Shown here one piece after another: positions 1,771-47,639 of a stretch of DNA of 64,000 nt. The position numbers and the translations under genes are program-made. The stretch's first letter is position 1. Every line of letters starts with the position of its first letter. The DNA is from an uncultured Gammaproteobacteria bacterium (GTDB lineage Bacteria > Patescibacteriota > Patescibacteriia > UBA9570 > XYC2-FULL-38-9). Below the pieces are notes generated by a model. The model had not been told where the DNA came from. It searched no databases and saw nothing but the letters and a program-made list of their open reading frames with translations. The DNA is taken from NCBI GenBank assembly GCA_964344485.1, contig CAYFNF010000001.1:186115-250114 (forward strand), given 5' to 3'.

Positions 1771-2049
1771 CATTACGTGATTGAGCCTCTCGCAGTACTC
1801 GTTCGGACTATAAACCCGGCTTGCGCCGGGCCAACCGTCCTTCACGAGCACTGCTGCGGCTCTCATGAAATGAATAACCTCACTGTACATGTAGAAATAC
1901 GTCTACAGTGGCACATTGAAAAGTGATTGATGTCAGATACTCTTGTCGATCTGGCGGTTCGTAGGAGGAGAGCGAGCCGCCGGACTGGCAAGAGTATCCT
2001 TCCCCAAGATGGGGAGTAACAGAACCGCGCTGCTGTGAAAAGGAGAGAC

Positions 2050-3351: not shown

Positions 3352-3510
3352 GCGGCAACGGCGAAGCTGGGCGGGCCTACCGAAGCACCACTACAGGACA
3401 TCGCATCAACGACATCAGTCCTTCGGGGTGAGCACCACACTCGCCCCTCCCCATTTTTTTCAACAACCCCGCGTCTGAGCGGTTCATATAAACATGATAT
3501 AATAATCACT

Positions 3511-4278
3511 ATGCCCGAAATAGCATCAAAAAAAACACGCGATCAAGTGAAGATTCGAGTCATTCACTTTCGAAGCGATCCAGTCATACAAAAGATGGAG
3601 TTTGATAGTTTTGTACGTTTTACAAAATTACGACCAGAGCAGCTTGTTGTGCATAACGCATTAACCGACCCAGTAACTACTGACCTGATAGATGGATTCG
3701 ATGGATTACTCATCGCCGGCGGTGGAGATGTTCGTGTTACCGAGGAGCTACCGTTTTGGGAGCCGGTGCGAAAGTTGTTGCGCCATGCGTATGAAATTAA
3801 TTTTCCAACGCTTGGAGTCTGCTTAGGCATCCAGTTAGCAGCACAAGAGTTCGGTGGAAAGCTCACGAGTGACAAGAAGTACTTCGAAACCGGAACCTAT
3901 CCAATGTACTTAACAGACGCAGCAAAGAACGATCCGATGTATCAAGGAATTCCAGAGATATTTAATGGACAGATGGGGCATAATGATACAGTAATTGAAA
4001 TACCAGCAGAAGCTGTTCATCTCACCTATAGCGATAGGTCAAAATATCAAGCGTTCTGCTTTCCCGGGAAGAAGATGTACTTCACGCAGTATCATCCTGA
4101 GTTAGACGAGCACCAGTTGCGTGAGCGTCTGTATTATTATGAAGAGCATTACGCAGATAACAAAGAAGAGTTTCAAGCCATCCTGAACACACTGCAAGAC
4201 TCCACTGATGCGTCTCTCATACTAGAACGGTTTGTTGATGTGTTGGTGCTTGATTCTGAAGCAGTTTGCGGAATGTAG
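3511..4278 (+). CDS. Class I glutamine amidotransferase-like protein, paralog 2
   Basis: Shares the same architecture as 748..1509: IRVIHFRSD, FVRFTKLRPEQL, TLGVCLGIQLAAQEFGG and TQYHPEL. Confidence 0.75.
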   Translation: MPEIASKKTRDQVKIRVIHFRSDPVIQKMEFDSFVRFTKLRPEQLVVHNALTDPVTTDLIDGFDGLLIAGGGDVRVTEELPFWEPVRKLLRHAYEINFPTLGVCLGIQLAAQEFGGKLTSDKKYFETGTYPMYLTDAAKNDPMYQGIPEIFNGQMGHNDTVIEIPAEAVHLTYSDRSKYQAFCFPGKKMYFTQYHPELDEHQLRERLYYYEEHYADNKEEFQAILNTLQDSTDASLILERFVDVLVLDSEAVCGM

Positions 4279-4331
4279 GAATACTTGTTAGTATCACGTC
4301 TATAATTAAATTAGTTTTTTTCAATACACAG

Positions 4332-5102
4332 ATGTCACAGCCAAAGAAACGGGAGGATGTACGGATTCTCCTTTTACAATTCCGAGAGGACCCATTTATT
4401 AAGAAGCAGGAGTTTGATCAATACGTACGGTTTACGAAACTTCGCGCAGATCAGATTGATGTCCTAGATGCATTAACAGAGACAGTTACAAATGACTGTG
4501 TCCATGGGTATAATGGAGTCATAGTGGGTGGAGTTGGACATATATTCATCAGCGACAACGCTCCGTTTCAAGAACCGGTACTCGAGTTAATTCGCTATTT
4601 ACTCGAACAGAACATTCCAACGCTCGGAATCTGTTTTGGCGCACAACTTGCTGCACTGGCGTTAGGCGGTACAGTAGAGCGAAAGCCAGAGATGTTTGAG
4701 TACGGAACGTATCAGATGTATTTAGAGGATGAAGCGAAGAACGATTTGATGTTCGACGGTGTACCATCTCCTTTTAATGGACAGATGGGGCATAAAGATT
4801 CTATTACTGAGCTACCTGAGGGTGCCGTGCGCTTAACGTATAGTGATGCATGTCCAAATCAAGCGTTTTACTTCCCCGGAAAGAAGTTTTATGTTGTGCA
4901 GTATCATCCGGAGCTAGATGAGAAAGGGCTAAAAGATCGTTTAGCGTATTATCGTGACCACTATGCTCGAGATGAGAAGCAATATCAAGAGCTGCGAGAC
5001 CGTATTACCGACTCTACTGACGCATCAAAGATTCTAGAGCGGTTTATCGACGTGCTCGTGCTTGACGAGCCAGCGCAACAGAGCGTAAAAGATCAGAAAT
5101 AA
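4332..5102 (+). CDS. Class I glutamine amidotransferase-like protein, paralog 3
   Basis: Carries VRILLLQFRED, YVRFTKLRADQ, TLGICFGAQLAALALGG and VQYHPEL. About 50% identical to paralog 2. The start is taken at ATG 4332; the upstream extension in the ORF track overlaps paralog 2. Confidence 0.7.
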   Translation: MSQPKKREDVRILLLQFREDPFIKKQEFDQYVRFTKLRADQIDVLDALTETVTNDCVHGYNGVIVGGVGHIFISDNAPFQEPVLELIRYLLEQNIPTLGICFGAQLAALALGGTVERKPEMFEYGTYQMYLEDEAKNDLMFDGVPSPFNGQMGHKDSITELPEGAVRLTYSDACPNQAFYFPGKKFYVVQYHPELDEKGLKDRLAYYRDHYARDEKQYQELRDRITDSTDASKILERFIDVLVLDEPAQQSVKDQK

Positions 5103-9137: not shown

Positions 9138-10949
9138 ATGAGAAAAACGATCCTTGTTCTCAGTACCGGGTTGTTTCTTTTATTGATGCAACCTGTGAGC
9201 GCTGAGACCGCACCGATCACTCTAGACGGCGACATATCAGACTGGGATGACGCTGGTATAGAGAGCCTTATTACCGACACTACCGGAGAGGTAGTTGGGA
9301 CTGATTGGTGCTATAACAACGCTACTTCCCAGTGGGAGGAGAAAGCTGAGAAAGATTGCGGCTCATTATTTGTGAATCAAGAGTTGTTTTTAGACATTGG
9401 AGACTTTCGAATGACTCATGATTCTACATTGATGTACGTTGCGCTGGAGTCAGCCGCGCCAATTATGGGCGTGAAGGTTCTAGATCCAACGAGTTTGGAT
9501 TACGGTAAATATCTACCGTTTGGATATCCATTAGATTGGGATGGTTCCGGCCCACCAGAAAAGTTTATAGCAGGAGCGCCTAGAGCGTTTGACCACTCTA
9601 TGGTGATCTGCTTTGACTTAAATCAGGATGGAATTGATGACCTATTTGCGAGAACGAATTTTCAATGGGAAGAAGGTATGGTTGGCACTGAAACCGGAGA
9701 AGGCATGACTATCATGCACTATCTGTATCAAGATGATGGTGATGGAGAGTACACGCCAAGTACTGATACACTCTTAGAGGAAGAAGAAGACAATCCTGTC
9801 GGTGTTTCATCTGATTCCTTTGATGCGAGTGAAGGGTTGTCAGCAGTCACTGAAGTTTCGGACGAGCTAGAGAGCTTTGAACTTCTAATTGGCGAAACAG
9901 TGAATGTGCATGTAGAGATGTGGTCATCCCTTGCTGACGAGACTGAGCCAGTGGAGTACACCTTCACAGAGTATATACCTGAGAAGATCACCGGGTTAAA
10001 AATAAACGACCCACTACCGCATCGACTCAGCTATGTGAACCTTACATGGGACGCAGATGATTCAGCTGCTACGTATGACATTCAACTATTGAAAAAGAAC
10101 GGTACGGTTTCACAGAGCCTAACATCAGCTACAAATAGTAAAAAGATAAAGAAGAAGTATCTTGTCGCGAATAGCGCAAGAAAAGTGAAGGTCCGAGGCG
10201 TCACCGGCGCTGGAACTCCTGGAGAGTACTCTGATACTAAGACGTTCTATGTTCCACCGGCAATGCCTCGCAATCTTCAAGCAAAGCGCGTCGGTCCAAC
10301 TACTGCAGTACTTGATTGGGTTGCACCAAAGAGGCACGCAAAGCTCAAACACTATAGAGTTATTCTATACAAAGGGAAGAAGGCCGTTCGAAGGTTGAAT
10401 GTGAAAAAGACGCAAAAGTTGGTTCGAAACTTAGATCCATCCAGCAAGTACTCCTTTAAAGTACGAACTGTGCGAAGAACTGGAGTATCAAGTAGGTGGT
10501 CTAAGAAGAAATCATTTACCACTATGGGGCCAGTACAGTATGTCAAGATCGAAGACATGACTCGAGTGGCAGATGATGACCTGAAACCTGGCGCGGATAT
10601 TGATGCATTGGTACTCAATCAAGAAGACGGGACCAAGTATTACGCAGACATGATCCCTGATCGGTACATTCCGATCTCCAGTGGAGATGATGACCCAGCA
10701 GAGATGCTCGGTATGCCAGACTATTCAGTAGATACAGACTGGGGGTACACTTCTTTGGGTGGAGTTGGCGGATATGCAGTGATCAAGCTAGAGCAAGCCA
10801 TGGATAAGGACTCTAAGAATCTAGTCATTCGTGAACTGCGCACAGTCTCTAAAGTCGGGGATGCTTATAAAGTCTACTTTTCTGAATCAGAGCTAGGCCC
10901 ATGGACATTCATTGGTCGCCACTCTGGCCGCGCAATCATTGGGTTATAA
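9138..10949 (+). CDS. Secreted protein with fibronectin-III-like/Ig-like domains and a Lys/Arg-rich region
   Basis: Signal peptide MRKTILVLSTGLFLLLMQPVSA|ETAP. Fn3-like segments include PRNLQAKRVGPTTAVLDWVAP. Confidence 0.6.
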   Translation: MRKTILVLSTGLFLLLMQPVSAETAPITLDGDISDWDDAGIESLITDTTGEVVGTDWCYNNATSQWEEKAEKDCGSLFVNQELFLDIGDFRMTHDSTLMYVALESAAPIMGVKVLDPTSLDYGKYLPFGYPLDWDGSGPPEKFIAGAPRAFDHSMVICFDLNQDGIDDLFARTNFQWEEGMVGTETGEGMTIMHYLYQDDGDGEYTPSTDTLLEEEEDNPVGVSSDSFDASEGLSAVTEVSDELESFELLIGETVNVHVEMWSSLADETEPVEYTFTEYIPEKITGLKINDPLPHRLSYVNLTWDADDSAATYDIQLLKKNGTVSQSLTSATNSKKIKKKYLVANSARKVKVRGVTGAGTPGEYSDTKTFYVPPAMPRNLQAKRVGPTTAVLDWVAPKRHAKLKHYRVILYKGKKAVRRLNVKKTQKLVRNLDPSSKYSFKVRTVRRTGVSSRWSKKKSFTTMGPVQYVKIEDMTRVADDDLKPGADIDALVLNQEDGTKYYADMIPDRYIPISSGDDDPAEMLGMPDYSVDTDWGYTSLGGVGGYAVIKLEQAMDKDSKNLVIRELRTVSKVGDAYKVYFSESELGPWTFIGRHSGRAIIGL

Positions 10950-13218: not shown

Positions 13219-13857
13219 TTGTCAATTATGCTAATACAGACATTACTACAAGAACCAATTTTTTTTCTGCTATGGGTACTTGCCATTGTGTTTTCCTTGA
13301 CGATCCACGAATTCTCTCACGGGTTAATGGCAAAGATCCAGGGCGATCCTACGGCTGAGCTTGAAGGACGACTTTCGCTAAACCCATTAGCGCATATCGA
13401 TTGGATGGGCTTCTTCTTACTGGTGGTCGCTGGATTCGGTTGGGCAAAACCTGTTCCGTTTAATCCGTATAATCTAAAGAACAAGCGATTCGGTCCAGCG
13501 TTGGTTGCAATGGCTGGTCCGCTGTCGAATATTCTCGCTGTGGTCGTGATTGGCAGTGTATTAGCGTTGTTCTATCATTTAACTGGTATCACCGACGACA
13601 ACTTGATGATTATGTTCTTTGTGTTAGTGATCCAAGTGAACGTCTTACTTGCTGTGTTTAATTTTATTCCGATTCCTCCGTTAGATGGTTCAAAAATCCT
13701 CTACGCTATTATTGGACAGCGTCGTCCTGATATTGTGATGTTCTTGGAACGATACGGTATTTGGTTATTACTCGCATTAGTCTTCTTCGGCGGAAGCATT
13801 ATCTTTCGGATTTTCTACTTCTTCTACGAACTAATCCTACGATTGATTTTCTTCTAG
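13219..13857 (+). CDS. Site-2 protease family (M50) zinc metalloprotease
   Basis: HEFSHG (HExxH) motif, LDG motif (NFIPIPPLDGSKI), multiple TM helices. Confidence 0.75.
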   Translation: MSIMLIQTLLQEPIFFLLWVLAIVFSLTIHEFSHGLMAKIQGDPTAELEGRLSLNPLAHIDWMGFFLLVVAGFGWAKPVPFNPYNLKNKRFGPALVAMAGPLSNILAVVVIGSVLALFYHLTGITDDNLMIMFFVLVIQVNVLLAVFNFIPIPPLDGSKILYAIIGQRRPDIVMFLERYGIWLLLALVFFGGSIIFRIFYFFYELILRLIFF

Positions 13858-13892: not shown

Positions 13893-14147
13893 TTATACAG
13901 CTTTTATCATGATCAGCCGGTATGCAGGACCGATGCCAGTAAAGAACAAGTAGACCACGAGAATAATAGCGATTGCAATTAAACTATCTGTTATCCGAGT
14001 TTTTGCTTCTTCTTCTTTCTTTTTATCTCCTTTGTGTGTATAGAACTCGAATGCGCCCAAGATAATGAGCAATACTGCAACAGCGATCACCACGCCAAGG
14101 ATGATCTTAATTAACAGTAGTATCATTGGAAATGTTTCTGTTCCCAT
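13893..14147 (-). CDS. Possible small two-TM membrane protein
   Basis: 84-aa ORF MGTETFPMILLLIKIILGVVIAVAVLL...IAIAIILVVYLFF. No SD. It overlaps the alternative N-terminal extension of the FG-GAP gene. Confidence 0.25.
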   Translation of the reverse strand: MGTETFPMILLLIKIILGVVIAVAVLLIILGAFEFYTHKGDKKKEEEAKTRITDSLIAIAIILVVYLFFTGIGPAYRLIMIKAV

Positions 14148-14231
14148 ATATTGTAAGTATACACCATACGGCTTTTTTTTAAAAACAATCGAGCGTTGTG
14201 TTATAATACATCCATTATTACGAAAAAAAGC

Positions 14232-16692
14232 AATGAAAAACACTTTACTATTCGTAAGTGGTGTAGCGATCACCTTTTTATTATGCATGTCTCCGGTAGC
14301 AGCAGAAACCGAGCTGAGTCTGGGAATTGATGAAATAGTTCAGTTTACTGGTGAAACCGACGTAGATATGGCTGCGAGTTCTGTCGCATCCGCTGGCGAC
14401 GTCAACGGAGACGGGTATACTGATTTTCTCGTTGGAGCGACCGGAGTGGACCTGGGAAATGGTGCAGCGTACTTGGTGTATGGACAATCGAGCAACTATG
14501 CGTCAGCTTCACTAGGTACAACAGTAAAATTCAGCGCCGAGAGCTCAATGGATTTTGCAGGTAACTCTGTCGCATCTGCCGGCGACGTAAACGGTGATGG
14601 ATATGATGATATTCTTATTGGCGCACAAGCAAATGATGCAGTAGCAACGACCGCAGGAGCAGCGTACTTACTCTATGGCAAAGCAGACAATCACACCTCA
14701 GCTTCTCTTGACACCGCTATTCGGTTTACTGGCGAAGCGTTGAATAATTCAGCTGGTACATCCGTCGCATCTGCCGGCGACGTAAACGGTGATGGATATG
14801 ATGATATTCTTATTGGTGCTCCAGGTAATAGTGATGCAGGCTCTGGTGCTGGAGCAGCGTACTTACTCTATGGCAAAGCAGACAATCACACCTCAGCTTC
14901 TCTGAGTACTGCGGTACAACTCTCTGGAGAAACAGGTGATTCAGCAGGTACATCCGTCGCATCTGCCGGCGACGTAAACGGCGATGGATATGATGATATT
15001 CTTATTGGTGCAACGAGTGCAGCTTCTGGTAATGGAGCAGCGTACTTACTCTATGGCAAAGCAGACAATCACACCTCAGCTTCTCTGAGTACTGCGGTAC
15101 AATTTTCAGGGGAAGAAAATACAGACACCGCAGGTAACTCTGTCGCATCCGCTGGCGACGTAAACGGTGATGGATATGATGATATTCTCGTGAGCGCAAT
15201 GATGGCTGAATCTATGAAAGGAGGAGCATACTTACTCCATGGCAAAGCAGACAATCACACCTCAGCTTCCTTAAGTACCGGGATTCAATTTCTCGGATTA
15301 ACTGATATGGACATGGCTGGAGATGATGTCGCATCTGCCGGCGACGTAAACGGTGATGGATATGATGATATTCTAGTCGGCTCAACACAAGGCGGTGGCA
15401 TGAAAGGTGTTGCGTATTTACTGTACGCTGAGGAATCAGATATTTCCATTACTAACAACAACTCATCAATAAATACTATAGAATGCAGTGTTGGTACATT
15501 TGCGGATCCAGGCGCAACAGCTACTGATGAATATGAAGATTCATCCTTATCTGTATCATCATCAGGAACCGTTACTGAAGAAATTGTTGGAAGTTATCCA
15601 ATAACGTATACCGCGGTAAATGTTCTGAGTGTCGCATCTTCTGCGATACGAACAGTGACAGTTCAAGATACTACCGCGCCAACCATCAGTATTACCAATA
15701 ATACAGTTGAGTATAATATTGTAGAGTGTGGTGTTGATACTTTTTCAGATCCGGGCGCAACAGCAACAGATACGTGCGATAGCAGTATAACGCCATCTGC
15801 CCTAGGGACAGTTTCAGAAGAGACAGCTGGAACATATTCTGTAGTATATTCAGCTACAGATGATTCGGATAATCCAGCAGATGCTGCAACGCGATCCGTT
15901 CTAGTACAAGATACTACCTCACCTACTATCACTCTCACCGGAGAAAGTTCAGTTACAGTGTCGCAAGGAGATACATATACGGATGCTGGTGCGACTGCAA
16001 CGGATAGTTGTGAGGGAGACCTTACAAGCAGCATTCAGACCACTAGTACGGTAGATACCTCTGTTGTTGGGGAGTACTCTGTTACCTATACTCTCACTGA
16101 CGCAGCAGAAAACCCGGCGACTGCAGTGGTACGAACCGTGAATGTTATCGCAGCTGTAGATGATAGTGAAGATGAGCAGTCTCCGGTATCTTCATTAGGA
16201 ACTAAGAAAAAGGGGAAGGTAAAAGTCAGCTACGAGGATGGATCATCAAGTACTTTTTCTGTATTTACTAAGGGGAAACCTAAAGCTAGCCTTGCTTCTG
16301 ATGACGAAAGAGTCATTGTGGTGAATAGTAAAGGAAAGCTTGTGCGCATAATTGATGCGTTTTCAGGAGAGGTGTTAGCGAGTAAGAAGATCCGAGCCAA
16401 AAAGCAAGCTATTACTAAAATTAAGGTAATTGATTTCTATAGCAAAAAGGACTCAAAAGATGAGGTGTTGGTTGCAACTAAGAAAAAGAGAGTATTGAAA
16501 ATCACAGTACTAACTCTTCACGATACGACGGATAAGCTATCAAAGAAAACTACGAAGATTATTAAGCCGTTTAGAAGCAACAAGTACAAGATAGTGCGCA
16601 AGAAAAAGCAGGTCAGAATCAAGGTCGGGAAGAAAATAAAAAAGAAGTACAAAGTTACGAAGAGGGGGAGACTGAAGAAGGTAAAGAAATAG
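14232..16692 (+). CDS. Secreted FG-GAP (integrin-alpha-like) repeat protein with Ig-like (PGATATD-type) domains and a Lys-rich C-terminal tail
   Basis: Signal peptide MKNTLLFVSGVAITFLLCMSPVAA|ETE. Seven repeats of SVASAGDVNGDGYDDILIGA. Three copies of DTTAPTI...C.VDTF.DPGATATD. The last 170 aa are Lys-rich. Confidence 0.7.
14380..15420 (+). repeat. Tandem ~180-nt repeats encoding the FG-GAP modules
   Basis: Near-identical nucleotide blocks (catccgtcgcatctgccggcgacgtaaacggtgatggatatgatgatattcttattggtgc and gcagcgtacttactctatggcaaagcagacaatcacacctcagcttctct) recur at ~14580, 14760, 14940, 15120 and 15300. Confidence 0.7.
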
Positions 16693-40751: not shown

Positions 40752-40891
40752 TACCATTTTTCCCACATTTTTGGTATAATAAGAAGTGAGCTTCCTTTTT
40801 TTATTGATGAAATGCAGGATTACTGCATTTATCGGTTGTAATATATCGCCCGAACTATCGTATATAGTTAATCTTAGACTATTTACACCAC

Positions 40892-41434
40892 ATGCTAGAT
40901 CATAATGAATTAGCTGAACGAGCACGAACTGACGAGCAAGCATTTGCTGAGTTGTATGAACTCTATATTGATATGATCTATGGTTTTGTGATGAAGCGCG
41001 TGGGGCATACAGAGACTACCGAAGATATTGTGTCTGACATCTTCCGAAAAGTATTCCTTCATTTAGATGGTTTCGATTCCTCAAAAGCCTCGTTTAAGAC
41101 GTGGGTTTTTCAAATTGCAAATAATACGTTGATTGATTTCTATCGCGTTCATCGTAATGTAAACAAACCTGACAACGTAGATATAGATGAAGTAGTGCAA
41201 CTCTGTAGCCAGGAGCAGACACCTGATGAGCTCGTTCTCTCTCATGAGCAGCAAGAGTACATCCGTCAGTGTTTGATGCAGTTACAGCCCAAGCAGCAAA
41301 CTATCGTGCAGATGAAGTACTTTGATGGGTACTCCAATAAAGAGATAGCAGAGTGTATGAAGATGTCAGCGAATGCTGTGGGAGTACAGCTGCATCGATC
41401 TCTAAAGAAGATGAAAACAATAATCGAACAATAA
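40892..41434 (+). CDS. RNA polymerase sigma-70 family (ECF-type) sigma factor
   Basis: Region 2 (DIVSDIFRKVFLHLDGF, WVFQIANNTLIDFYR) and region 4 HTH (NKEIAECMKMSANAVGVQLHRSL). Confidence 0.75.
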   Translation: MLDHNELAERARTDEQAFAELYELYIDMIYGFVMKRVGHTETTEDIVSDIFRKVFLHLDGFDSSKASFKTWVFQIANNTLIDFYRVHRNVNKPDNVDIDEVVQLCSQEQTPDELVLSHEQQEYIRQCLMQLQPKQQTIVQMKYFDGYSNKEIAECMKMSANAVGVQLHRSLKKMKTIIEQ

Positions 41435-41438
41435 ATAT

Positions 41439-44400
41439 ATGCCTGTATCCAAAAGAAAACAACGTAATGCTACTGATGGATCTTCGTATACAGGAGTAGA
41501 GAAGCTGATTTCTGCTTCTCAGCACCAATCAAGCGGTGCACCAACGCAGTATAAGAAAGCGTTGCTTTCTGAATTGCGAACAGAACAATTTAATAACACG
41601 CATATGGCAAAAAATAAGAAAACCGCGGCTTCGAAAAAAGCTGCAGTGAGTGCACAGGATTCTAACACGGATTCTGACCGCGCTCGTAAGAAGCAGTTGT
41701 TTAGCTTCCCAATTTTTATTCCCGCAGTTGTCGGTGTACTCGTGCTTGGCATTATCATTACTTCTTTCGTCGTATTTCGTTCAGATGACCCACAGCCTGG
41801 CGGCGAGGTTACAGGCCCACTGGTGATACATCAGAATGTCAGTGATGAAGATATTGAAAATGCGTTTTCTCTGTCCGCGTTACAGGAAGACGCATCAGGC
41901 GTTAATCCTAAAACATCATTTCAGTTGATCTCCACTGTGCAGACCTCAGTGGATCAGATCAAGGATTCATTATCGTTCTCTCCATCTGTTGCATACGCTG
42001 TCGAAGCAACAGATAGCAACACGTATCGTGTTACTCCAGAGGCTCCACTCGAAGCCGGAAGTATGGTTGCTGCGACCATGAACGTTCAGTATCAGGGCGA
42101 GGGCAACACCATGATGCAGCGCAATTTCTCTTGGTCATATCAAGTGCAAGAAACCTTTCAAGTGCTATCAACGCTGCCACGTAATGCAGTAACCAGCGTT
42201 CCAGTGGATACGAGTATCGAGATTGAGTTTAGTCATACTGATGTGCAGGATATTGAGGAGAATTTCACTATCACTCCAGAAGTCTCTGGTCGATTCGAGA
42301 TGCATCGAAAGAGCGCTGTGTTCATTCCTGACGCTCCGCTGAAGAAAGGTACTGTATATACCGTGACACTGAAGAAAGAAACGCATCTCTCGTCTCCAGA
42401 AACTCCGCTGCAAGAAGACTTGGTATTTATGTTTGAGACCTCATCAAAGGATACAGATACTTCATACACCCCAGGGATTACGCAAATCCAACAGGTATCG
42501 AATGAAACTTCTACTCTAGAGAAGCCAGTATTTATCGTGTCTGGGTGGGATTTGGAAGATATAGAAGAGACTACATTAGCTTTCTATGAATTTTCGGATC
42601 AAGGGCAGTTTGAAGCAGCGTTTGATAATTACATTGCAGTTCCACAATGGGCATCCTACTCTCAGTCACACTGGAGCTATTCAACAGAAGGGCTGCAGTT
42701 ACACTCTTCTACGTCAGTTCCGCTGCAGGATATCGGTAATTACTGGCAGTTTGCAATTGAAGCACCGCAGCCGTTAGAGCAGGGTTGGTATTTAGTAGAA
42801 GTACTTGGCCGCAATGATGAGAATTACTACGCATTACTGCAGGTCGAGGATATTACGGCGTATGTGACTACTTCTGAAAAAGACATGGTCGTGTGGGCGC
42901 ATGATGCAACTACGCAAGATCCACTCGTGGGTGCAGAAGTCAAGTTGTCAGACGGTACATCTGTAGGTACTACTGACGCAAGCGGTTTATTGCAGGTCGA
43001 TACACCGGATGCACTGACGTTAGACGATAACACTTCCACACATGCAGTGACTATCGTCTATGGCGCGAGTACGTTATTTGTTCCGTTGTCAGGAAACGCT
43101 CAGGGATATAGTCGATACAAGCAGTATGGTAATTCAGCAACATCTGATCCATATTGGTCTTATATCTATTTAGATCAACCGTTCTATCTCCCTGATGCGA
43201 CCATGAATATCTGGGGGCTGCTTTCTTCCCGTGATGCCAGCGCGGTCTCTTCTGCAAGTATAGAGATACGAGATGGATATGATTTCGATGATCCAGAAAG
43301 CATCGTGTATAAAAAGACCCTGTCACCGGGTACGTACGGTACATTCGAGCATACAGTTGATCTCCCTAATCTACTTCCAGATTACTATACATTGACACTA
43401 ACCGTAGACGGTGAAGTGATTACCTATAAATCATTTGATATCCTTACTTACCAGAAGCCAGCATATACGTTGGATGTTGACCCAGCAAATATCGGAGTGA
43501 TCAGTGGCGAGGATGTAACTCATACAGTGACCGCATCGTTCTTTGATGGGACCCCAGTGACTTCTGTTGATATTGAACTTGATGGACAGAATCTCACTAC
43601 AAATGACCAGGGTGTGGTGGAGTATACGCACGCGTATAGTGGAGAAGGTTCTTACTATGATGAACGCATAGATACACAATGGCTCCATGCACGACCAGCG
43701 TTATCTGAAGAAGGGAACATATCCGCTGAAGCTCGAGTTCGCGTTTTCCCATCATCACAATTGATAGATGTTGATTCTACTGTTAAGGAGAGCACTGCAA
43801 CTGTGAATGGAACCCTCTACGAATTGGACTTAGCAGGATTTAATGATGGGACGTTTGACTTCTTTGAAGATCCGTACGGTTCGACTGTTGCAAACCATGA
43901 GCTCTCTGCTACCGTGACGCGCCGATGGTACAAGAAGAACCAGACTGGAACTCGGTATGATGCTATCGATAAAAAAGTCGTTCCAGTATATGAATATGAG
44001 TATAAGAATAAAGAGATTCTATCAACTACCGTGACTTCTGACTCGAACGGTACGTTTAACTTTGACTTTGATATGCTTGATGGGTCGTCATACGATGTTG
44101 CTGTGCGCTCAACCGATAGTCAAGGACGTACTATACGAGAGAACGCGTATGCGTCTGTTGGGTACGGCGCAACCTGGAGTGACGGCGATCTCTTTTCTAT
44201 CGGATATACTAGTGAAGGAGGCGAAGGTGAGGCGTACATGTCAGTGAAGAGGGATTTCTCACTCGGAGAGACGGTTTCTGTTGGCATGTATCGTAACGAT
44301 GATCTATTAGCTACTGAAGAGTATCCAGCATTCCTCTTTGTTCAAGCACAGAACGGCATCATGGATGTTGACACCTCCCAGGAAGCAACGTATGAATTCC

Positions 44401-46685
44401 CGTTTGCAGAAGAGCACATACCTAATGTGGTGCTGCAAGGAGTATGGTATGATGGTCGATCGTATTGGTCCACAGACACTGATACAGGTATGTGGAGTCG
44501 TGGAACTGTTGCATCATATCAAGAAGAAGATCGTGAAATGCAGATTGAAGTAGTGCAGGATAAAGACTCTTATGAGCCAGGCGATGATGTAACGCTGAAC
44601 ATCACTGCAACTCGTCCAGACGGTTCAGCTTCCGAAACTGTGCTAAATGTAAATTTAGTAGATGAAGCGCTGTACGCCATCTTGCCAGAACGCAGCTACA
44701 GTTTTACCAGTGACTATACAAAAGGATTCAATGTCAGTTTATACCGGGATGTTGCTTCTGGTATTCTGACCTCATATGCATCACATCGCTATCCTAGTAA
44801 AGAGACGTACGCTGAAGGTGGCGGTGGACAGGGATCTCGATCGAACTTCCCTGACAAAGCGCTGTTCAAGACTGTTACTACGAACGAACACGGAAAAGCG
44901 CAGATTCAGTTTACACTTCCAGACAACATCACTTCATGGCGCATTAACACACACGCTGTAGATAGTGGATTATACGCAGCAAGCTCTATCGAGAAGCTGA
45001 CTGTGACGCAACCGTTCTTTGTTGCTGCTGTATTGAATAAGACCTATCTCGCTGACGATCTGCCAGTAGTAAAAGTTCGCGCGTTCGGAACTGCTCTGAC
45101 GCAAGCAGATGCAGTGGCACTGACTTGGGAGTCTGATACGCTAGGGGTTGAAGAGACACCACTATCGACATCAGGATCTACTCCTGTAGAGCTCACTCTC
45201 CCAGCGCTTTCGGCAGGCAAGCACTCCATTACTGTTGCCGGAGAAGCAGTCGGGTATAGCGATGCTATTACTCGATCGTTTACGGTCCTACCATCATATA
45301 CGGCGATTCCGTTCTCAGAGATGCACGATGCGGTTGCTGATTGGAAACCAGTTGTGGATACGGATCGCAACTTCTCTGTCACATTTGCTGATAAAAATAA
45401 AGGACAGTTCTATTCATACTTACGGCAACGTGCATATTCATTTGGTGATCGCTTAGATCAGCAAGTCGGGCGCGCTATTGCAACAACACTGTTGAATGAG
45501 CACTTTGATGCAGGAATGATAGAAGACACTATCACCACATCTGAATATCAAGCGTTAGAGCTGCATGGATTAACGCTCTATCCATACACTGATGAAGACC
45601 TTGTGCTCAGCGCTCATGTCGCAGCAAGTCGAATGGCAGATCAGTTTGACACTGCGCGCCTTGCTAGCTATTTCGAGGGCATTCTGAATAATTCCTCTGA
45701 GACCACATTACGTCATGCGATTAGTTTGTATGGATTAGCAGGCCTACAGCAACCAGTATTAGTGGAAATTCGCGAGGTTTTGAACTCAACTGAGATTACC
45801 GATATCGATCGTTTATACCTAACCTTAGCGCTTGCTGAGCTAGGTAGTTATGATGAGGCCGAGATCTTGTATGAAGCGTTCAAGACCAAGTATGCAAAAG
45901 AGCACGATCAATACATGTATGTAGAGCTTGGAGACAATAAGGACTACCAGTTAGAGAATACACTAGTGATGGCGAATATCGCTGCACATATTCAAGATGA
46001 TAGTGCTGATGCGTTCTTTAACTATGTACGAGACAATTGGACCAAAGAGATTGTACTCATGGTTCCTGAGATGAACTTTATGGAAGCGCGGTTAGATGTG
46101 TTGCCACAGTCTTCAACCACGGTGACGTATGCACTCTCAGGAGAAGAACATACAGCGGAGTTGAAGGAAGGAAAGACGCACACTGTTGCCTTGACCTCTT
46201 TGTCAAAGGATTCATTCAAGGTAGTCCGAGTGGATGGCGCTGCTTCTGCAATTGTTGAGTACACGCGTAAACCGACCGCAGATGAATTACAGTCAGATGA
46301 TCGAATCGCAGTATTACGATCGTATGAAAAGACCACAGTGCAAGACGGAGACTTAGTGCGCATTACTATTACTCCTTCGATTACGTCGAGTGCTCCAGAC
46401 GGTCTCTATCAAGTAACGGATTTCGTACCTTCTGGTCTGCGCATCGTCACTAATCCATACGAGTATACACAGTGGAACTATGAAAATGATTTCCGTTCAC
46501 CGTATCGAGTGGATGGACAGCGCGCATCCTTTATTGTCAGCAAATGGGACAACAATCCGACGTTTACCTACTACGCTCGAGTACTCAGCAAGGGAACGTA
46601 TGCGGCTGAGCAACCAGTTATGCAATCCATGAACTCGCCAAGTGTACGAACGATCGGGAATCAAGAGACTATCACGATAGAGTAA
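41439..46685 (+). CDS. Membrane-anchored alpha-2-macroglobulin-family giant protein (1748 aa; no CxEQ thioester motif seen)
   Basis: Cytoplasmic basic N-terminus, then a single TM (IFIPAVVGVLVLGIIITSFVVF). Bait-region-like NVNLVDEALYAIL. A2M-domain signature LPDNITSWRINTHAVDSGLYAASSIEKLTVTQPFFV. Starts 4 nt after the sigma factor stop. Confidence 0.6.
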   Translation: MPVSKRKQRNATDGSSYTGVEKLISASQHQSSGAPTQYKKALLSELRTEQFNNTHMAKNKKTAASKKAAVSAQDSNTDSDRARKKQLFSFPIFIPAVVGVLVLGIIITSFVVFRSDDPQPGGEVTGPLVIHQNVSDEDIENAFSLSALQEDASGVNPKTSFQLISTVQTSVDQIKDSLSFSPSVAYAVEATDSNTYRVTPEAPLEAGSMVAATMNVQYQGEGNTMMQRNFSWSYQVQETFQVLSTLPRNAVTSVPVDTSIEIEFSHTDVQDIEENFTITPEVSGRFEMHRKSAVFIPDAPLKKGTVYTVTLKKETHLSSPETPLQEDLVFMFETSSKDTDTSYTPGITQIQQVSNETSTLEKPVFIVSGWDLEDIEETTLAFYEFSDQGQFEAAFDNYIAVPQWASYSQSHWSYSTEGLQLHSSTSVPLQDIGNYWQFAIEAPQPLEQGWYLVEVLGRNDENYYALLQVEDITAYVTTSEKDMVVWAHDATTQDPLVGAEVKLSDGTSVGTTDASGLLQVDTPDALTLDDNTSTHAVTIVYGASTLFVPLSGNAQGYSRYKQYGNSATSDPYWSYIYLDQPFYLPDATMNIWGLLSSRDASAVSSASIEIRDGYDFDDPESIVYKKTLSPGTYGTFEHTVDLPNLLPDYYTLTLTVDGEVITYKSFDILTYQKPAYTLDVDPANIGVISGEDVTHTVTASFFDGTPVTSVDIELDGQNLTTNDQGVVEYTHAYSGEGSYYDERIDTQWLHARPALSEEGNISAEARVRVFPSSQLIDVDSTVKESTATVNGTLYELDLAGFNDGTFDFFEDPYGSTVANHELSATVTRRWYKKNQTGTRYDAIDKKVVPVYEYEYKNKEILSTTVTSDSNGTFNFDFDMLDGSSYDVAVRSTDSQGRTIRENAYASVGYGATWSDGDLFSIGYTSEGGEGEAYMSVKRDFSLGETVSVGMYRNDDLLATEEYPAFLFVQAQNGIMDVDTSQEATYEFPFAEEHIPNVVLQGVWYDGRSYWSTDTDTGMWSRGTVASYQEEDREMQIEVVQDKDSYEPGDDVTLNITATRPDGSASETVLNVNLVDEALYAILPERSYSFTSDYTKGFNVSLYRDVASGILTSYASHRYPSKETYAEGGGGQGSRSNFPDKALFKTVTTNEHGKAQIQFTLPDNITSWRINTHAVDSGLYAASSIEKLTVTQPFFVAAVLNKTYLADDLPVVKVRAFGTALTQADAVALTWESDTLGVEETPLSTSGSTPVELTLPALSAGKHSITVAGEAVGYSDAITRSFTVLPSYTAIPFSEMHDAVADWKPVVDTDRNFSVTFADKNKGQFYSYLRQRAYSFGDRLDQQVGRAIATTLLNEHFDAGMIEDTITTSEYQALELHGLTLYPYTDEDLVLSAHVAASRMADQFDTARLASYFEGILNNSSETTLRHAISLYGLAGLQQPVLVEIREVLNSTEITDIDRLYLTLALAELGSYDEAEILYEAFKTKYAKEHDQYMYVELGDNKDYQLENTLVMANIAAHIQDDSADAFFNYVRDNWTKEIVLMVPEMNFMEARLDVLPQSSTTVTYALSGEEHTAELKEGKTHTVALTSLSKDSFKVVRVDGAASAIVEYTRKPTADELQSDDRIAVLRSYEKTTVQDGDLVRITITPSITSSAPDGLYQVTDFVPSGLRIVTNPYEYTQWNYENDFRSPYRVDGQRASFIVSKWDNNPTFTYYARVLSKGTYAAEQPVMQSMNSPSVRTIGNQETITIE

Positions 46686-46690
46686 CAGTA

Positions 46691-46714
46691 AGCCCGGAGT
46701 AATCCGGGCTTTTC
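46691..46714 (+). terminator. Rho-independent terminator
   Basis: Hairpin agcccgga-gtaa-tccgggct followed by tttt. Confidence 0.6.
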
Positions 46715-46719
46715 ACTAT

Positions 46720-47508
46720 ATGAAACTACTGAAACAAATTGTATTCATTATCTGTGTAGTCATTCTCGGTATTATTATTGGTCTTGTCGTACGCCCGGAA
46801 CAAGGTGAAGATAGCACACCAGCAGAACTCTATGGAGGAGTAGTGCCTCATCATGATTTGATCCCTAAAGAGATAGGGCGCTTCTGGGAAGAGCTTGCTG
46901 TGCGCGTCCAGCCCGAAGCAGTAGTCTTGGTTGGGCCGGATCATTATGACGCTGGGAGATCATCAGTTTCGATTGCGAATCATCAATCAGCACTCACAGA
47001 GCAAGTGACATTGTACGAACCTCTTATAGAACAACTGCAAGAGCATGCAGCAGTGACTAGTGATAACCAAACGATTCGTGAGGATCACTCCATTCAGATT
47101 CACCTGACGTTTATTCAGAAGTATCTTCCGGATACAGAAATTGTTCCGTTGATTTTTCGCGCGGATGCAGAGCAGAGTGACGTGATCGATATTGCAGAGA
47201 TCATTCGTACAGCACAGGGCAGCCCGGTTGCGGTAGTGGCATCTGTGGACTTCTCTCACTACCTGACGCATGAACAAGCAACAGAGCGTGACATAGAGAC
47301 CAGTGCTGCAATTCAGGAATTTGATTATCAGAAGCTTCAGACATTCGGGCCTGACAACATTGATTCAGATCAATCGGTTGTGTTAGTGAGCGAAGCGGTC
47401 TGCCCGACTCATGATTGCTCTTGGGAGACTCTCTTCTACGGTAACTCTTCGGAATACTCAGGCAATCCAGCAATTACCACTTCGTACTACTCTCTATTTG
47501 TGCATTGA
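46720..47508 (+). CDS. MEMO1/AmmeMemoRadiSam-system-protein-B-like (class III extradiol dioxygenase-like fold)
   Basis: N-terminal TM segment. GGVVPHHDLI and LVGPDHYDAG motifs. Confidence 0.5.
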   Translation: MKLLKQIVFIICVVILGIIIGLVVRPEQGEDSTPAELYGGVVPHHDLIPKEIGRFWEELAVRVQPEAVVLVGPDHYDAGRSSVSIANHQSALTEQVTLYEPLIEQLQEHAAVTSDNQTIREDHSIQIHLTFIQKYLPDTEIVPLIFRADAEQSDVIDIAEIIRTAQGSPVAVVASVDFSHYLTHEQATERDIETSAAIQEFDYQKLQTFGPDNIDSDQSVVLVSEAVCPTHDCSWETLFYGNSSEYSGNPAITTSYYSLFVH

Positions 47509-47572
47509 ATTGTCGCAGCGTATATGATTTAGAATGTAGCAGATCTTGTGGTGGCAGCAGGTAGCTATGTTC

Positions 47573-47601
47573 TTGACAGATATAGTGGAAAAACGTATAC
47601 T
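47573..47601 (+). promoter_or_regulatory. Sigma70-type promoter upstream of rplU
   Basis: TTGACA, 17 nt spacer, TATACT. Confidence 0.55.
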
Positions 47602-47639
47602 GTGGTTCGTGCTGATAAAATAATAATAATAACTATACT

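What the first reader, a model, noticed from the sequence alone, without database searches (positions are those of the whole stretch)
40892..46685. ECF-type sigma factor translationally coupled to a membrane-anchored alpha-2-macroglobulin-family giant protein
The sigma factor stop and the 1748-aa ORF start are 4 nt apart. The large protein has a ~95-aa basic cytoplasmic N-terminus, one TM helix, then a >1600-aa extracytoplasmic region. That region carries an A2M-domain signature (LPDNITSWRINTHAVDSGLYAASSIEKLTVTQPFFV) and a bait-region-like VDEALYAIL. No CxEQ thioester was seen. The N-in / single-TM / big-periplasmic-domain topology next to an ECF sigma factor is the classic anti-sigma arrangement. 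This may therefore be an A2M-like protease trap fused to, or acting as, an anti-sigma factor, i.e. a sensor of host or foreign proteases. Bacterial A2Ms are normally lipoproteins paired with PBP1c, not with sigma factors.
Basis: partly seen in the sequence, partly recalled or inferred. Interest (0 to 1): 0.6.

Follow-up and report, generated by a model that had tools for sequence, protein, structure and literature searches.

The report
Sigma factor, membrane-anchored macroglobulin, Memo cassette
A candidate-phyla-radiation bacterium carries an inserted three-gene cassette (stress sigma factor, giant membrane-anchored protease-trap-like protein without the usual reactive thioester, exported Memo-like enzyme) whose layout recurs in many bacteria and suggests, without proving, that the giant protein holds the sigma factor in check and senses attack from outside.

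Summary
Window 40892-41434 encodes a 180-aa ECF sigma factor. Four nt later, 41439-46685 encodes a 1748-aa protein: a basic cytoplasmic tail (aa 1-93), one TM helix, and an ectodomain that is a bacterial-type alpha-2-macroglobulin (A2M) by HMMs and by two AlphaFold models (best PDB matches ECAM and Salmonella A2M). It has no cysteine, so no thioester.

Kerfeldbacteria relatives with the same backbone lack all three genes, so they form one indel.

Among 74 related loci, 22 have an ECF sigma gene directly upstream. All 22 have a long N-terminal tail on the A2M; none of the 47 short-tailed ones has a sigma gene there (Fisher p = 2e-14). The linked forms fall in several clades.

A separate Chloroflexota A2M lineage, with a thioester, carries a textbook zinc anti-sigma domain at the same position, again behind an overlapping ECF sigma gene.

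The window's own tail matches no known anti-sigma domain, and binding is untested. Best reading (about 0.55): an anti-sigma factor with an A2M sensor domain. This is a new variant of a known kind.

The parts
40838..40862 (+). ECF-type promoter-like motif GTAAT-N16-CGTA, 30 nt upstream of the sigma start codon
   Evidence: The pattern GT[AC]A[CT]-N16-17-CGT[TA] lies just upstream of the sigma gene in 17 of 22 sigma-linked loci, against 1.8% of background 210-nt windows. The pattern was defined after looking at these sequences. This is the only intergenic match in the 64-kb window.
40892..41434 (+). ECF (group 4) sigma-70 family sigma factor, 180 aa
   Evidence: Pfam Sigma70_r2 and Sigma70_r4_2; NCBIfam TIGR02937 at 122.6 bits (cut-off 42.9). 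Closest solved relatives are SigW, R. sphaeroides SigE, BldN and SigK.
41439..46685 (+). 1748-aa single-pass membrane protein with a thioester-less bacterial-type alpha-2-macroglobulin ectodomain
   Evidence: Pfam A2M, A2M_BRD and Big_5. Family profile collinear with ECAM and Salmonella A2M. AlphaFold models of aa 116-1200 and aa 1130-1748, with Foldseek top hits 5a42, 4u48 and 4ziu. No cysteine.
41439..41717 (+). Cytoplasmic N-terminal tail (aa 1-93, net charge about +10); candidate anti-sigma module. Conserved core aa 16-51 = nt 41484-41591
   Evidence: A tail of at least 50 aa is present in all 22 sigma-linked homologues and in none of the 47 short-tailed ones. Core aa 16-51 is 67% identical to L001, against 15% for the following linker. 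No known anti-sigma domain was detected.
41718..41780 (+). Single transmembrane helix (about aa 94-114)
   Evidence: Kyte-Doolittle 19-residue mean of 2.71 starting at aa 94; sequence.
44664..44861 (+). Flexible Gly-rich linker at the bait-region position (aa 1076-1141), between the bait-region domain and MG7
   Evidence: pLDDT is 21-49 across model residues 961-1026 of the aa 116-1200 model. Across homologues the length varies from 25 to more than 90 aa, with a conserved A-E-x-G-G-G core followed by R-x-x-F-x-D.
45393..46094 (+). Helical TED-like domain (aa ~1319-1552). The invariant R1338 in GDRLDQQ sits at the start of its first long helix, where thioester proteins carry CxEQ
   Evidence: Helices 190-423 of the aa 1130-1748 model, pLDDT mostly above 85. 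Foldseek aligns the model with the MG7-to-C-terminus part of ECAM (4ziu, TM 0.48). R1338 is invariant. There is no Pfam TED hit. Equating R1338 with the thioester site is an inference from position.
46314..46640 (+). C-terminal MG10-like beta domain (aa 1626-1734)
   Evidence: Pfam bMG10 at 17 bits, below threshold here, but 39.8 bits, above threshold, in homologue P0003. The profile aligns to ECAM 1462-1609.
46690..46711 (+). 9-bp hairpin (AAGCCCGGA-gtaa-TCCGGGCTT) between the A2M stop and the Memo start; possible attenuator or mRNA-stabilising element
   Evidence: Read directly from the sequence. It was not reported as a terminator-like site in the scan; its T tract is short.
46720..47508 (+). 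Membrane-anchored, extracytoplasmic Memo-like protein (AmmeMemoRadiSam system protein B family), 262 aa
   Evidence: Pfam Memo 4e-18. NCBIfam TIGR04336 at 88 bits, cut-off 26. N-terminal TM anchor. Directly downstream of the A2M gene in 54 of 71 loci. 51 of 57 partners have an N-terminal anchor or a lipobox.

Best explanation
Window 40.8-47.5 kb is a self-contained three-gene surface-defence and signalling cassette in a Kerfeldbacteria-like Patescibacteria genome. It comprises an ECF sigma factor, a membrane-anchored thioester-less A2M-like protein, and an exported Memo-like enzyme.

Shown here:
- The three genes are one insertion relative to close relatives.
- The ectodomain is a bacterial-type A2M with a flexible linker at the bait position and no thioester.
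- The sigma gene is tightly coupled to the A2M gene only in homologues whose A2M has a cytoplasmic N-terminal tail.
- An ECF-type promoter motif precedes the sigma gene in most sigma-linked loci.
- A second A2M lineage carries a bona fide zinc anti-sigma domain in the same place.

Inferred mechanism:
- The cytoplasmic tail (conserved core aa 16-51) binds and sequesters the sigma factor, so the A2M-like protein is the cognate anti-sigma factor and its ectodomain is the sensor.
- Cleavage or conformational collapse of the ectodomain, most simply attack by a foreign protease on the aa 1076-1141 linker, destabilises the anchor. This may occur through regulated intramembrane proteolysis.
- The sigma factor is released and transcribes its own operon. 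A single-use surface trap is thereby replenished as it is consumed, together with its Memo-like partner.
- The role of the Memo-like protein is unknown. It is extracytoplasmic and is the most conserved partner of this A2M family.
For: - ORFs and the 4-nt gap.
- ECF assignment of the sigma factor.
- A2M assignment by Pfam, by a family profile against PDB, and by AlphaFold plus Foldseek for both halves.
- Disordered linker at the bait position.
- No Cys and no CxEQ.
- The cassette is an indel. L088 and L089 (SecY 75-76% identical) keep GT4-DUF192-L21-RecR-YbaB-DnaB but have no sigma, A2M or Memo genes. L001 keeps the cassette at the same site. L002/L003 keep sigma-A2M-Memo in a different neighbourhood at 28% identity.
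- In 74 loci, 22 have a sigma gene directly upstream (-44 to +23 nt), and all 22 have the first TM helix at residue 51 or later. None of the 47 short-tailed loci has one (Fisher p = 2e-14). L009, cut by the contig end, also shows the 3' end of a sigma gene.
- Sigma-linked forms lie in at least 4-5 clades, with unlinked short-tailed sisters inside the Peptococcaceae clade.
- Sigma and A2M distances co-vary (r = 0.91, 0 of 2000 permutations).
- ECF-type promoter motif in 17 of 22 linked loci.
- Neither flanking gene offers a candidate anti-sigma factor: the upstream DUF192 gene belongs to the conserved backbone that persists without the cassette, and the Memo-like protein has only a 6-residue stretch before its anchor.
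- Independent precedent: 17 Chloroflexota A2M clusters carry zf-HC2 (HxxxCxxC), a TM helix and a CxEQ-containing A2M. In 3 of 3 contexts examined, an ECF sigma gene overlaps them by 4 nt.
- Weak sub-threshold hits of 4 of 23 tails to NCBIfam 'anti-sigma factor' NF052375.
- An M50 (site-2 protease family) gene is present at window 13219-13857.
Against: - The window protein's tail has no hit to any anti-sigma family in Pfam or NCBIfam, none in PDB, and no profile-profile similarity to the zinc anti-sigma domains of the Chloroflexota lineage (probability about 1%).
- The tails of different sigma-linked clades are not demonstrably homologous to each other.
- No binding test was possible.
- The bait-position linker lies about 1000 residues from the membrane, so a direct route from bait cleavage to site-2 proteolysis is not obvious.
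- The linker has a conserved A-E-x-G-G-G core, unlike the hypervariable baits of classical A2Ms.
- Without a thioester, protease trapping itself is unproven.
- 51 of the 71 evaluable loci have no adjacent sigma gene, so the A2M-Memo pair functions without it.
- The promoter pattern was defined post hoc.
- The loci are phylogenetically related, so the Fisher p-value overstates independence.
Confidence: 0.55

Rival explanations
1. Regulator plus target only. The ECF sigma factor drives the A2M-Memo operon, but the A2M-like protein is not its anti-sigma factor. Sigma activity is controlled elsewhere (by transcription, a distant anti-sigma factor or phosphorylation), and the N-terminal tail has another role, for example membrane insertion, localisation or turnover.
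For: No recognisable anti-sigma domain in the tail. Tails of different clades are not detectably homologous. In L005 an A2M-Memo pair is followed by a sigma gene with its own separate zf-HC2 anti-sigma gene. Most family members work without an adjacent sigma gene.
Against: The all-or-none co-occurrence of the tail with an upstream sigma gene, including sister pairs within one clade, is hard to explain if the tail does not act on sigma. The second gene of an ECF operon with N-in single-pass topology is the standard anti-sigma position (established knowledge of ECF systems). The Chloroflexota lineage shows the same layout with a proven type of anti-sigma domain.
Confidence: 0.25
2. An anti-sigma factor, but not a protease sensor. 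The A2M-like ectodomain has lost trapping function along with its thioester. It serves as a large surface scaffold or ligand sensor (cell-wall, host-surface or partner-cell contact) or as a substrate of the Memo-like enzyme, and the signal is something other than proteolysis.
For: No cysteine and no thioester. A conserved A-E-x-G-G-G motif in the linker suggests a specific rather than a promiscuous recognition site. The strict pairing with an exported Memo-like enzyme has no counterpart in known A2M systems. The host is a CPR bacterium; members of this group are often episymbionts (general knowledge, not tested here).
Against: The full A2M architecture is retained, including a disordered linker at the bait position and a native-like packing of the TED-like domain. 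Thioester-less MagD still responds to elastase (PMC3735191). The thioester-bearing Chloroflexota anti-sigma::A2M proteins argue that genuine A2M chemistry can be coupled to sigma control.
Confidence: 0.2
3. Chance adjacency or an annotation artefact: the two ORFs are neighbours without any functional link.
For: None beyond the compactness of CPR genomes.
Against: The adjacency is conserved at 24-55% protein identity across phyla. The three genes are inserted and lost together. Gaps and overlaps run from -44 to +23 nt.
Confidence: 0.02

Closest known systems
E. coli ECAM (YfhM) and Salmonella A2M (PDB 5a42, 4ziu, 4u48): bacterial thioester A2Ms
   Same: Same overall multi-MG architecture, bait-region domain, MG7, helical TED-position domain and C-terminal MG10. 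These are the best Foldseek and profile matches for both halves. Both are anchored to the cytoplasmic membrane facing outwards.
   Different: ECAM is a lipoprotein with a CLEQ thioester, and its gene is adjacent to pbpC (PMC3735191). The window protein has a cytoplasmic tail plus a TM anchor, no cysteine, no Pfam TED hit, and sigma and Memo genes as neighbours. It comes from bacterial groups generally described as lacking an outer membrane (CPR, Clostridia, Chloroflexota; general knowledge).
Pseudomonas aeruginosa MagD (thioester-less A2M of the magABCDEF operon)
   Same: An A2M homologue that lacks CxEQ yet keeps the fold. MagD undergoes a small conformational change with elastase (PMC3735191).
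   Different: MagD has a cleavable signal peptide, was predicted to be soluble in the periplasm and sits in a six-gene mag operon. Here there is no mag-like neighbourhood, a TM anchor with a cytoplasmic tail, and ECF sigma and Memo partners.
Single-pass anti-sigma factors controlled by regulated proteolysis (RseA/SigE, RsiW/SigW, RsiV/SigV) and sensor-domain anti-sigma factors (RsgI/SigI)
   Same: The gene lies directly after, and is coupled to, an ECF sigma gene. The topology is N-in single-pass with a large extracytoplasmic domain. The promoter looks autoregulatory. The closest solved sigma is SigW.
   Different: No class I anti-sigma domain or zinc motif is detectable. The ectodomain of about 1630 aa is far larger than those sensors (from general knowledge) and is an A2M. 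The trigger and the proteases involved are unknown.
Chloroflexota zf-HC2::A2M proteins found here (P0033, P0307-P0324, P0347), annotated only as 'MG2 domain-containing protein' or YfaS-like
   Same: ECF sigma gene followed, with a 4-nt overlap, by a protein with a cytoplasmic N-terminus, one TM helix and an A2M ectodomain. Relatives without the N-terminal domain are 80-100 aa shorter.
   Different: They have a textbook HxxxCxxC anti-sigma domain, a Pfam TED and a CxEQ thioester. In the two loci with downstream sequence (L090, L091) no Memo gene follows. They share only 22-23% identity over 15% of the window protein.
MEMO1 / AmmeMemoRadiSam system protein B
   Same: The downstream gene passes the TIGR04336 and Pfam Memo thresholds.
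   Different: It is membrane-anchored or lipoprotein-like and extracytoplasmic. It is paired with an A2M-like gene rather than with AMMECR1 and radical-SAM partners; none is adjacent in the window.

Membership tests
Alpha-2-macroglobulin / C3 superfamily (bacterial A2M) | Array of macroglobulin (MG) beta-sandwich domains collinear with known A2Ms | tested here: met
   Pfam A2M, A2M_BRD and Big_5 above threshold; MG2, bMG3 and bMG10 below. Profile collinear with ECAM. Foldseek finds ECAM 5a42 at 1.4e-35 over 1092 columns for the N-terminal half and 8.5e-26 for the C-terminal half.
Alpha-2-macroglobulin / C3 superfamily (bacterial A2M) | Exposed, flexible bait region between the bait-region domain (MG6) and MG7 | tested here: inconclusive
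   A 66-aa segment (aa 1076-1141) with pLDDT below 50 lies at exactly this position. Its length varies among homologues, but it has a conserved A-E-x-G-G-G core. Protease susceptibility was not tested.
Alpha-2-macroglobulin / C3 superfamily (bacterial A2M) | Thioester domain (TED) with a CxEQ thioester | tested here: not met
   No cysteine in 1748 aa, and no CxEQ in 16 family members. No Pfam TED hit. A helical domain of about 235 aa occupies the TED position.
ECAM-type bacterial A2M | Lipoprotein signal peptide and a gene adjacent to pbpC (PBP1c) | tested here: not met
   The N-terminus is a 93-aa cytoplasmic tail plus a TM helix with no lipobox. The neighbours are sigma and Memo genes. The ECAM-pbpC pairing is from PMC3735191.
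MagD-type bacterial A2M | Thioester-less A2M inside a magABCDEF-like operon | tested here: not met
   Thioester-less, yes, but there are no mag-like neighbours in the window or in related loci.
ECF (group 4) sigma-70 factors | Only sigma regions 2 and 4; matches ECF family models | tested here: met
   180 aa with Sigma70_r2 plus Sigma70_r4_2. TIGR02937 at 122.6 bits against a cut-off of 42.9. No specific equivalog threshold was reached (best is the BldN family at 135.9 bits, cut-off 206).
Class I anti-sigma factors (ASD / zinc-binding ZAS) | N-terminal anti-sigma domain recognisable by sequence (zf-HC2 or RskA-like; HxxxCxxC in ZAS) | tested here: not met
   No Pfam or NCBIfam anti-sigma hit for the window's tail and no PDB hit. 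hhalign against the Chloroflexota ZAS alignment gives a probability of about 1%. Only 4 of 23 related tails give sub-threshold NF052375 hits (14-20 bits against a cut-off of 100).
Class I anti-sigma factors (ASD / zinc-binding ZAS) | Gene directly downstream of, and co-transcribed with, its ECF sigma gene; N-in single-pass topology | tested here: met
   4-nt gap. -44 to +23 nt in 22 loci. The tail is net basic and is followed by one TM helix. Co-transcription is inferred, not measured.
Class I anti-sigma factors (ASD / zinc-binding ZAS) | Physical binding to and inhibition of the cognate sigma factor | not testable with these tools
No multimer tool or experiment was available.
Memo / AmmeMemoRadiSam system protein B | Match to the family model | tested here: met
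   TIGR04336 at 88 bits (cut-off 26); Pfam Memo 4e-18.
Memo / AmmeMemoRadiSam system protein B | Genomic association with AMMECR1 and a radical-SAM partner | tested here: not met
   Neither is adjacent in the window or in L001-L006. The conserved partner here is the A2M-like gene.

The most novel reading that the evidence does not exclude
A consumption-coupled protease trap. The A2M-like ectodomain is a single-use surface decoy, and its own cytoplasmic tail is a previously unrecognised short anti-sigma module. Cleavage of the bait-position linker by a foreign protease leads to destruction of the anchor, release of the ECF sigma factor, and re-synthesis of the trap and its Memo-like partner. 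This would be the first ECF pathway whose sensor is an A2M. It would have evolved at least twice: in the thioester-less Memo-linked family of CPR, Clostridia and Dehalococcoidia, and in the ZAS-bearing thioester family of Anaerolineae.
Probability: 0.3. Interest if true: 0.8.

Novelty: new variant of a known kind. Interest (0 to 1): 0.62.

Why it matters
The bacterial A2Ms characterised in the literature consulted here (ECAM, Salmonella A2M, MagD) are periplasmic-face proteins of Gram-negative bacteria, and ECF anti-sigma factors are known with many sensor domains. Four full-text searches found no paper connecting the two, and one further search found none linking a bacterial A2M to Memo. The supplements of the main ECF classification paper could not be read.

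The data define three things:
- A large unnamed family of thioester-less, membrane-anchored A2M-like proteins, with at least 1318 clusters at 50% identity. It occurs in lineages generally described as lacking an outer membrane (CPR, Clostridia, Chloroflexota).
- A conserved extracytoplasmic Memo-like partner, which gives a bacterial Memo protein a concrete context.
- Two independent fusions of this kind of ectodomain to sigma-factor control.

If the tail does bind the sigma factor, these systems would be a natural protease- or damage-sensing transcriptional switch and would add a new anti-sigma module. They would also give a handle on how very small CPR cells defend their surface. All of this is directly testable with a two-gene reporter.

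Tried and rejected
- A locus search with the 16-sequence alignment A1 failed because no stretch was conserved enough. The 6-sequence alignment A2 worked.
- An exact look-up of the window protein found no record, and cluster look-ups gave no names. Taxonomy came instead from SecY homologues.
No interface prediction was therefore possible.
- Pfam, NCBIfam and PDB searches of 23 N-terminal tails gave no anti-sigma domain. They produced only sub-threshold NF052375 and NF038083 hits, and none for the window's own tail.
- hhalign of the tail alignments against the Chloroflexota ZAS alignment, and against each other, gave probabilities near 1%, barely above reversed-sequence controls. I therefore do not claim that the tail is a divergent class I anti-sigma domain, nor that the tails of all clades are homologous.
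- I considered a classical thioester trap and rejected it, because there is no cysteine.
- I considered ECAM-pbpC or mag-operon membership and rejected both on neighbourhood.
- I considered whether L005's downstream sigma/zf-HC2 pair shows the ancestral state. That anti-sigma protein appears soluble, with no obvious TM segment on reading the sequence, and the link is unclear, so I left it open.
- The tree is a rough neighbour-joining tree only.

Full report
**1. The observation**

The ORF list shows a 180-aa ORF at 40892..41434 and a 1748-aa ORF at 41439..46685, both on the + strand. The sequence reads ...CAA TAA ATAT ATG..., a 4-nt gap.

The first protein has only sigma-70 regions 2 and 4. 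It passes the ECF superfamily model (TIGR02937, 122.6 bits, cut-off 42.9) but reaches no specific equivalog threshold. Its closest solved relatives are SigW, R. sphaeroides SigE, BldN and SigK.

The second protein passes Pfam thresholds for A2M (aa 1141-1197), A2M_BRD (aa 938-1080) and Big_5 (aa 239-334). It has weak MG2, bMG3 and bMG10 hits.

The first hydrophobic helix begins near aa 94. From the sequence, the preceding 93 residues carry 17 K/R against 7 D/E. The protein has no cysteine, and none of 16 family members has CxEQ.

**2. What the large protein is**

A profile of 16 family members is collinear with E. coli ECAM (YfhM) and Salmonella A2M in the N-terminal MG region, the bait-region/MG7 region and the C-terminal MG10.

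An AlphaFold model of aa 1130-1748 has mean pLDDT 84.6. It shows beta domains, a helical domain of about 235 aa, and then more beta domains. Its best PDB matches are native ECAM (5a42), ECAM MG7-to-C-terminus (4ziu, TM 0.48/0.47), Salmonella A2M, C3/C5, CD109 and TEP1. It fits native conformations better than activated ones.

A model of aa 116-1200 has mean pLDDT 72.8. It is all-beta and again best matches ECAM (1.4e-35 over 1092 columns) and Salmonella A2M.

In that model, residues corresponding to aa 1076-1141 have pLDDT 21-49. This segment lies between the bait-region domain and MG7, which is the bait position. Across homologues its length varies from 25 to more than 90 aa, but it keeps an A-E-x-G-G-G core before the R-x-x-F-x-D motif.

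The invariant R1338 in GDRLDQQ sits at the start of the first long helix of the helical domain. Thioester proteins carry CxEQ at that point. This equivalence is an inference from position.

The protein is therefore a thioester-less, bacterial-type A2M with a TM anchor and a cytoplasmic tail.

**3. Surroundings and origin**

The gene 34 nt downstream (46720-47508) encodes a Memo-like protein: Pfam Memo 4e-18, and TIGR04336 at 88 bits against a cut-off of 26. It has an N-terminal membrane anchor.

Upstream lies a conserved housekeeping block ending in SecY, Adk, Map, RuvX, a GT4 transferase and DUF192. Downstream are L21, RecR, YbaB and DnaB.

SecY homologues place the genome in Patescibacteria. 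The closest named relatives are Candidatus Kerfeldbacteria at 73-77% identity. Two such relatives (L088, L089) have the same backbone, GT4-DUF192-L21-RecR-YbaB-DnaB, with no sigma, A2M or Memo genes. L001, with SecY 85% identical, has the cassette at the same site.

The three genes, in window about 40752-47639, are therefore a single indel. L21 has its own sigma-70-like promoter.

**4. Related loci**

The word-indexed protein search found only 17 full-length relatives at 24-53% identity. These come from Dehalococcoidia and other Chloroflexota, from Clostridia and Peptococcaceae, and from many Patescibacteria.

A full HMM search with the C-terminal profile found 1318 clusters at 50% identity with E at or below 1e-30.

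I called ORFs in 87 loci and searched them with jackhmmer using the window's sigma, A2M and Memo proteins. The results were:
- The Memo-like gene lies directly downstream in 54 of 71 evaluable loci: 19 of 20 sigma-linked loci and 35 of 51 unlinked loci.
- 51 of 57 Memo-like partners have an N-terminal anchor, often a lipobox.
- An ECF sigma gene lies directly upstream (-44 to +23 nt) in 22 of 74 evaluable loci.
- In all 22, the A2M protein's first TM helix starts at residue 51 or later.
- None of the 47 loci with an earlier TM helix has an upstream sigma gene (Fisher p = 2e-14).
- L009, cut by its contig end, shows the end of a sigma region 4 just upstream.

On a rough neighbour-joining tree the sigma-linked forms fall in at least four or five clades. 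Inside the Peptococcaceae clade, sigma-linked long-tailed members such as L014 are sisters to unlinked short-tailed ones such as L016. The association has therefore been gained or lost repeatedly, always together with the tail.

Sigma and A2M pairwise distances co-vary (r = 0.91).

A motif GT[AC]A[CT]-N16-17-CGT[TA] precedes the sigma gene in 17 of 22 linked loci, against 1.8% of background windows. It resembles the -35 and -10 elements typical of ECF promoters (general knowledge). The window copy at 40838-40862 is the only intergenic match in the window. The pattern was defined after inspection, so the statistic is indicative only.

**5. An independent precedent**

One distant hit, P0033, carries Pfam zf-HC2 (33 bits, cut-off 22.2) at aa 11-36, a TM helix near aa 105-125, and a complete A2M with a TED and GCFEQ. 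Its gene overlaps an upstream ECF sigma gene by 4 nt.

A search with P0033 found 17 clusters (47-100% identity) with this architecture. They are annotated at most as 'MG2 domain-containing protein' or YfaS-like. More distant relatives lack zf-HC2 and are 80-100 aa shorter.

Their N-termini are textbook zinc anti-sigma domains of the form ELLAYLDGEL...HLxxCxxC.... Two further contexts, P0309 and P0324, again show an ECF sigma gene overlapping by 4 nt.

So an A2M ectodomain on a bona fide anti-sigma factor exists, in a lineage different from the window's family.

**6. Is the window's tail an anti-sigma domain?**

By sequence, this cannot be shown.
- Pfam and NCBIfam give no anti-sigma hit for the tail.
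- Four of 23 related tails give sub-threshold hits to NF052375 'anti-sigma factor' (14-20 bits, cut-off 100), and five give hits to NF038083.
- PDB gives nothing relevant.
- hhalign against the Chloroflexota ZAS alignment, and between clades, stays near 1% probability.

Within the tail, aa 16-51 (SYTGVEKLISASQH...QYKKALLSELRTEQF) is 67% identical to L001. The whole protein is 53-55% identical, and the Lys-rich linker that follows is only 15% identical. With only two sequences this is weak evidence of constraint.

The anti-sigma role therefore rests on gene position, topology, the tail/sigma co-occurrence, the lack of an alternative candidate in either flanking gene, and the precedent in section 5.

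**7. Mechanism (inferred)**

The tail sequesters the sigma factor. Damage to the ectodomain, most simply proteolysis of the bait-position linker, destabilises the anchor. The freed sigma factor then transcribes its own operon, replacing the trap and its Memo-like partner.

A small M50 (site-2 protease family) gene lies at 13219-13857, so intramembrane proteolysis is at least possible.

Several points weaken this model:
- The linker lies about 1000 residues from the membrane.
- The linker has a conserved core.
- Trapping without a thioester is unproven. MagD, which also lacks a thioester, does respond to elastase (PMC3735191).
- Most family members have no adjacent sigma gene.

**8. Comparison and novelty**

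The protein is a member of the A2M superfamily by fold and domain order. It fails the thioester criterion, the ECAM criteria (lipoprotein, pbpC) and the MagD criterion (mag operon).

It resembles single-pass, proteolysis-controlled anti-sigma factors in layout but fails the sequence test for class I anti-sigma domains.

Full-text searches for macroglobulin with anti-sigma/ECF, with 'extracytoplasmic function' and with 'sigma factor' found nothing relevant, and a search pairing bacterial A2M with Memo found no paper. The main ECF classification paper does not mention A2M in its text, and its supplements are not held.

I rate the finding a new variant of a known kind. Interest is moderately high because it is conserved, has evolved twice, and is directly testable.

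Noticed in passing
L072:4956-10370 (Candidatus Peregrinibacteria, LBWJ01000011): This A2M-like homologue has a Hint domain of about 125 aa (PT-HINT 9e-14, also Hint and Hint_2) inserted exactly in the Gly-rich bait-position linker. The insert starts GG|CFLAGT and ends YVHN|EKGGG. The residue after HN is Glu, so it does not look like a canonical splicing intein and may be a self-cleaving module.
   Followed up: partly
window 46720-47508 and 57 related loci: The Memo-like partners of this A2M family are nearly all exported: 51 of 57 have an N-terminal anchor, many with an L-x-G-C lipobox. They lack the usual AMMECR1 and radical-SAM neighbours. The A2M-Memo pair is more widespread than the sigma link (54 of 71 loci).
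   Followed up: partly
window 13219-13857 (+): A 212-aa Peptidase_M50 (site-2 protease family) protein with no PDZ hit. It is a candidate for intramembrane cleavage of the A2M anchor but is not linked to the cassette.
   Followed up: no
window 40810-40830: A perfect 8-nt inverted repeat, AAATGCAG-gatta-CTGCATTT, lies 8 nt upstream of the -35-like GTAAT of the putative ECF promoter. It could be an operator or the terminator of the DUF192 gene. An extended -10-like TGGTATAAT lies at 40772-40780.
   Followed up: no
window 46690-46711: A 9-bp hairpin lies between the A2M stop and the Memo start. Its T tract is short, and it was not reported as a terminator-like site in the scan.
   Followed up: no
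L002, L017, L025, L027, L059, L064, L069 (Patescibacteria clade), upstream of sigma: In this clade the CGTT -10-like element sits only about 3-10 nt before the sigma start codon and follows a TATACT-N3-4-TGTCAT motif. This suggests leaderless or very short-leader transcripts.
   Followed up: no
L005:12264-13394: Here an A2M-Memo pair without a tail is followed by an ECF sigma gene and a separate zf-HC2 (HLAVCPDC) anti-sigma gene. On reading its sequence, that protein appears soluble, with no obvious TM segment. Whether this pair regulates the A2M-Memo genes is unknown.
   Followed up: partly
window 2001-4000: A 58% GC stretch in a genome of about 44% GC. The 438-aa ORF at 2035-3351 has no Pfam hit, and a long antisense ORF overlaps it. 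Three GATase class-I paralogues lie around it (748-1509, 3511-4278, 4266-5102).
   Followed up: no
window 14065-16692 and 9138-10949: Other large predicted surface proteins: an 875-aa protein with FG-GAP repeats and bacterial surface Ig-like domains, and a 603-aa fn3-containing protein.
   Followed up: no
L001:14012-15461: The closest relative of the cassette has two extra genes with no Pfam hit (70 and 410 aa) between the Memo and L21 genes. They are absent from the window.
   Followed up: no
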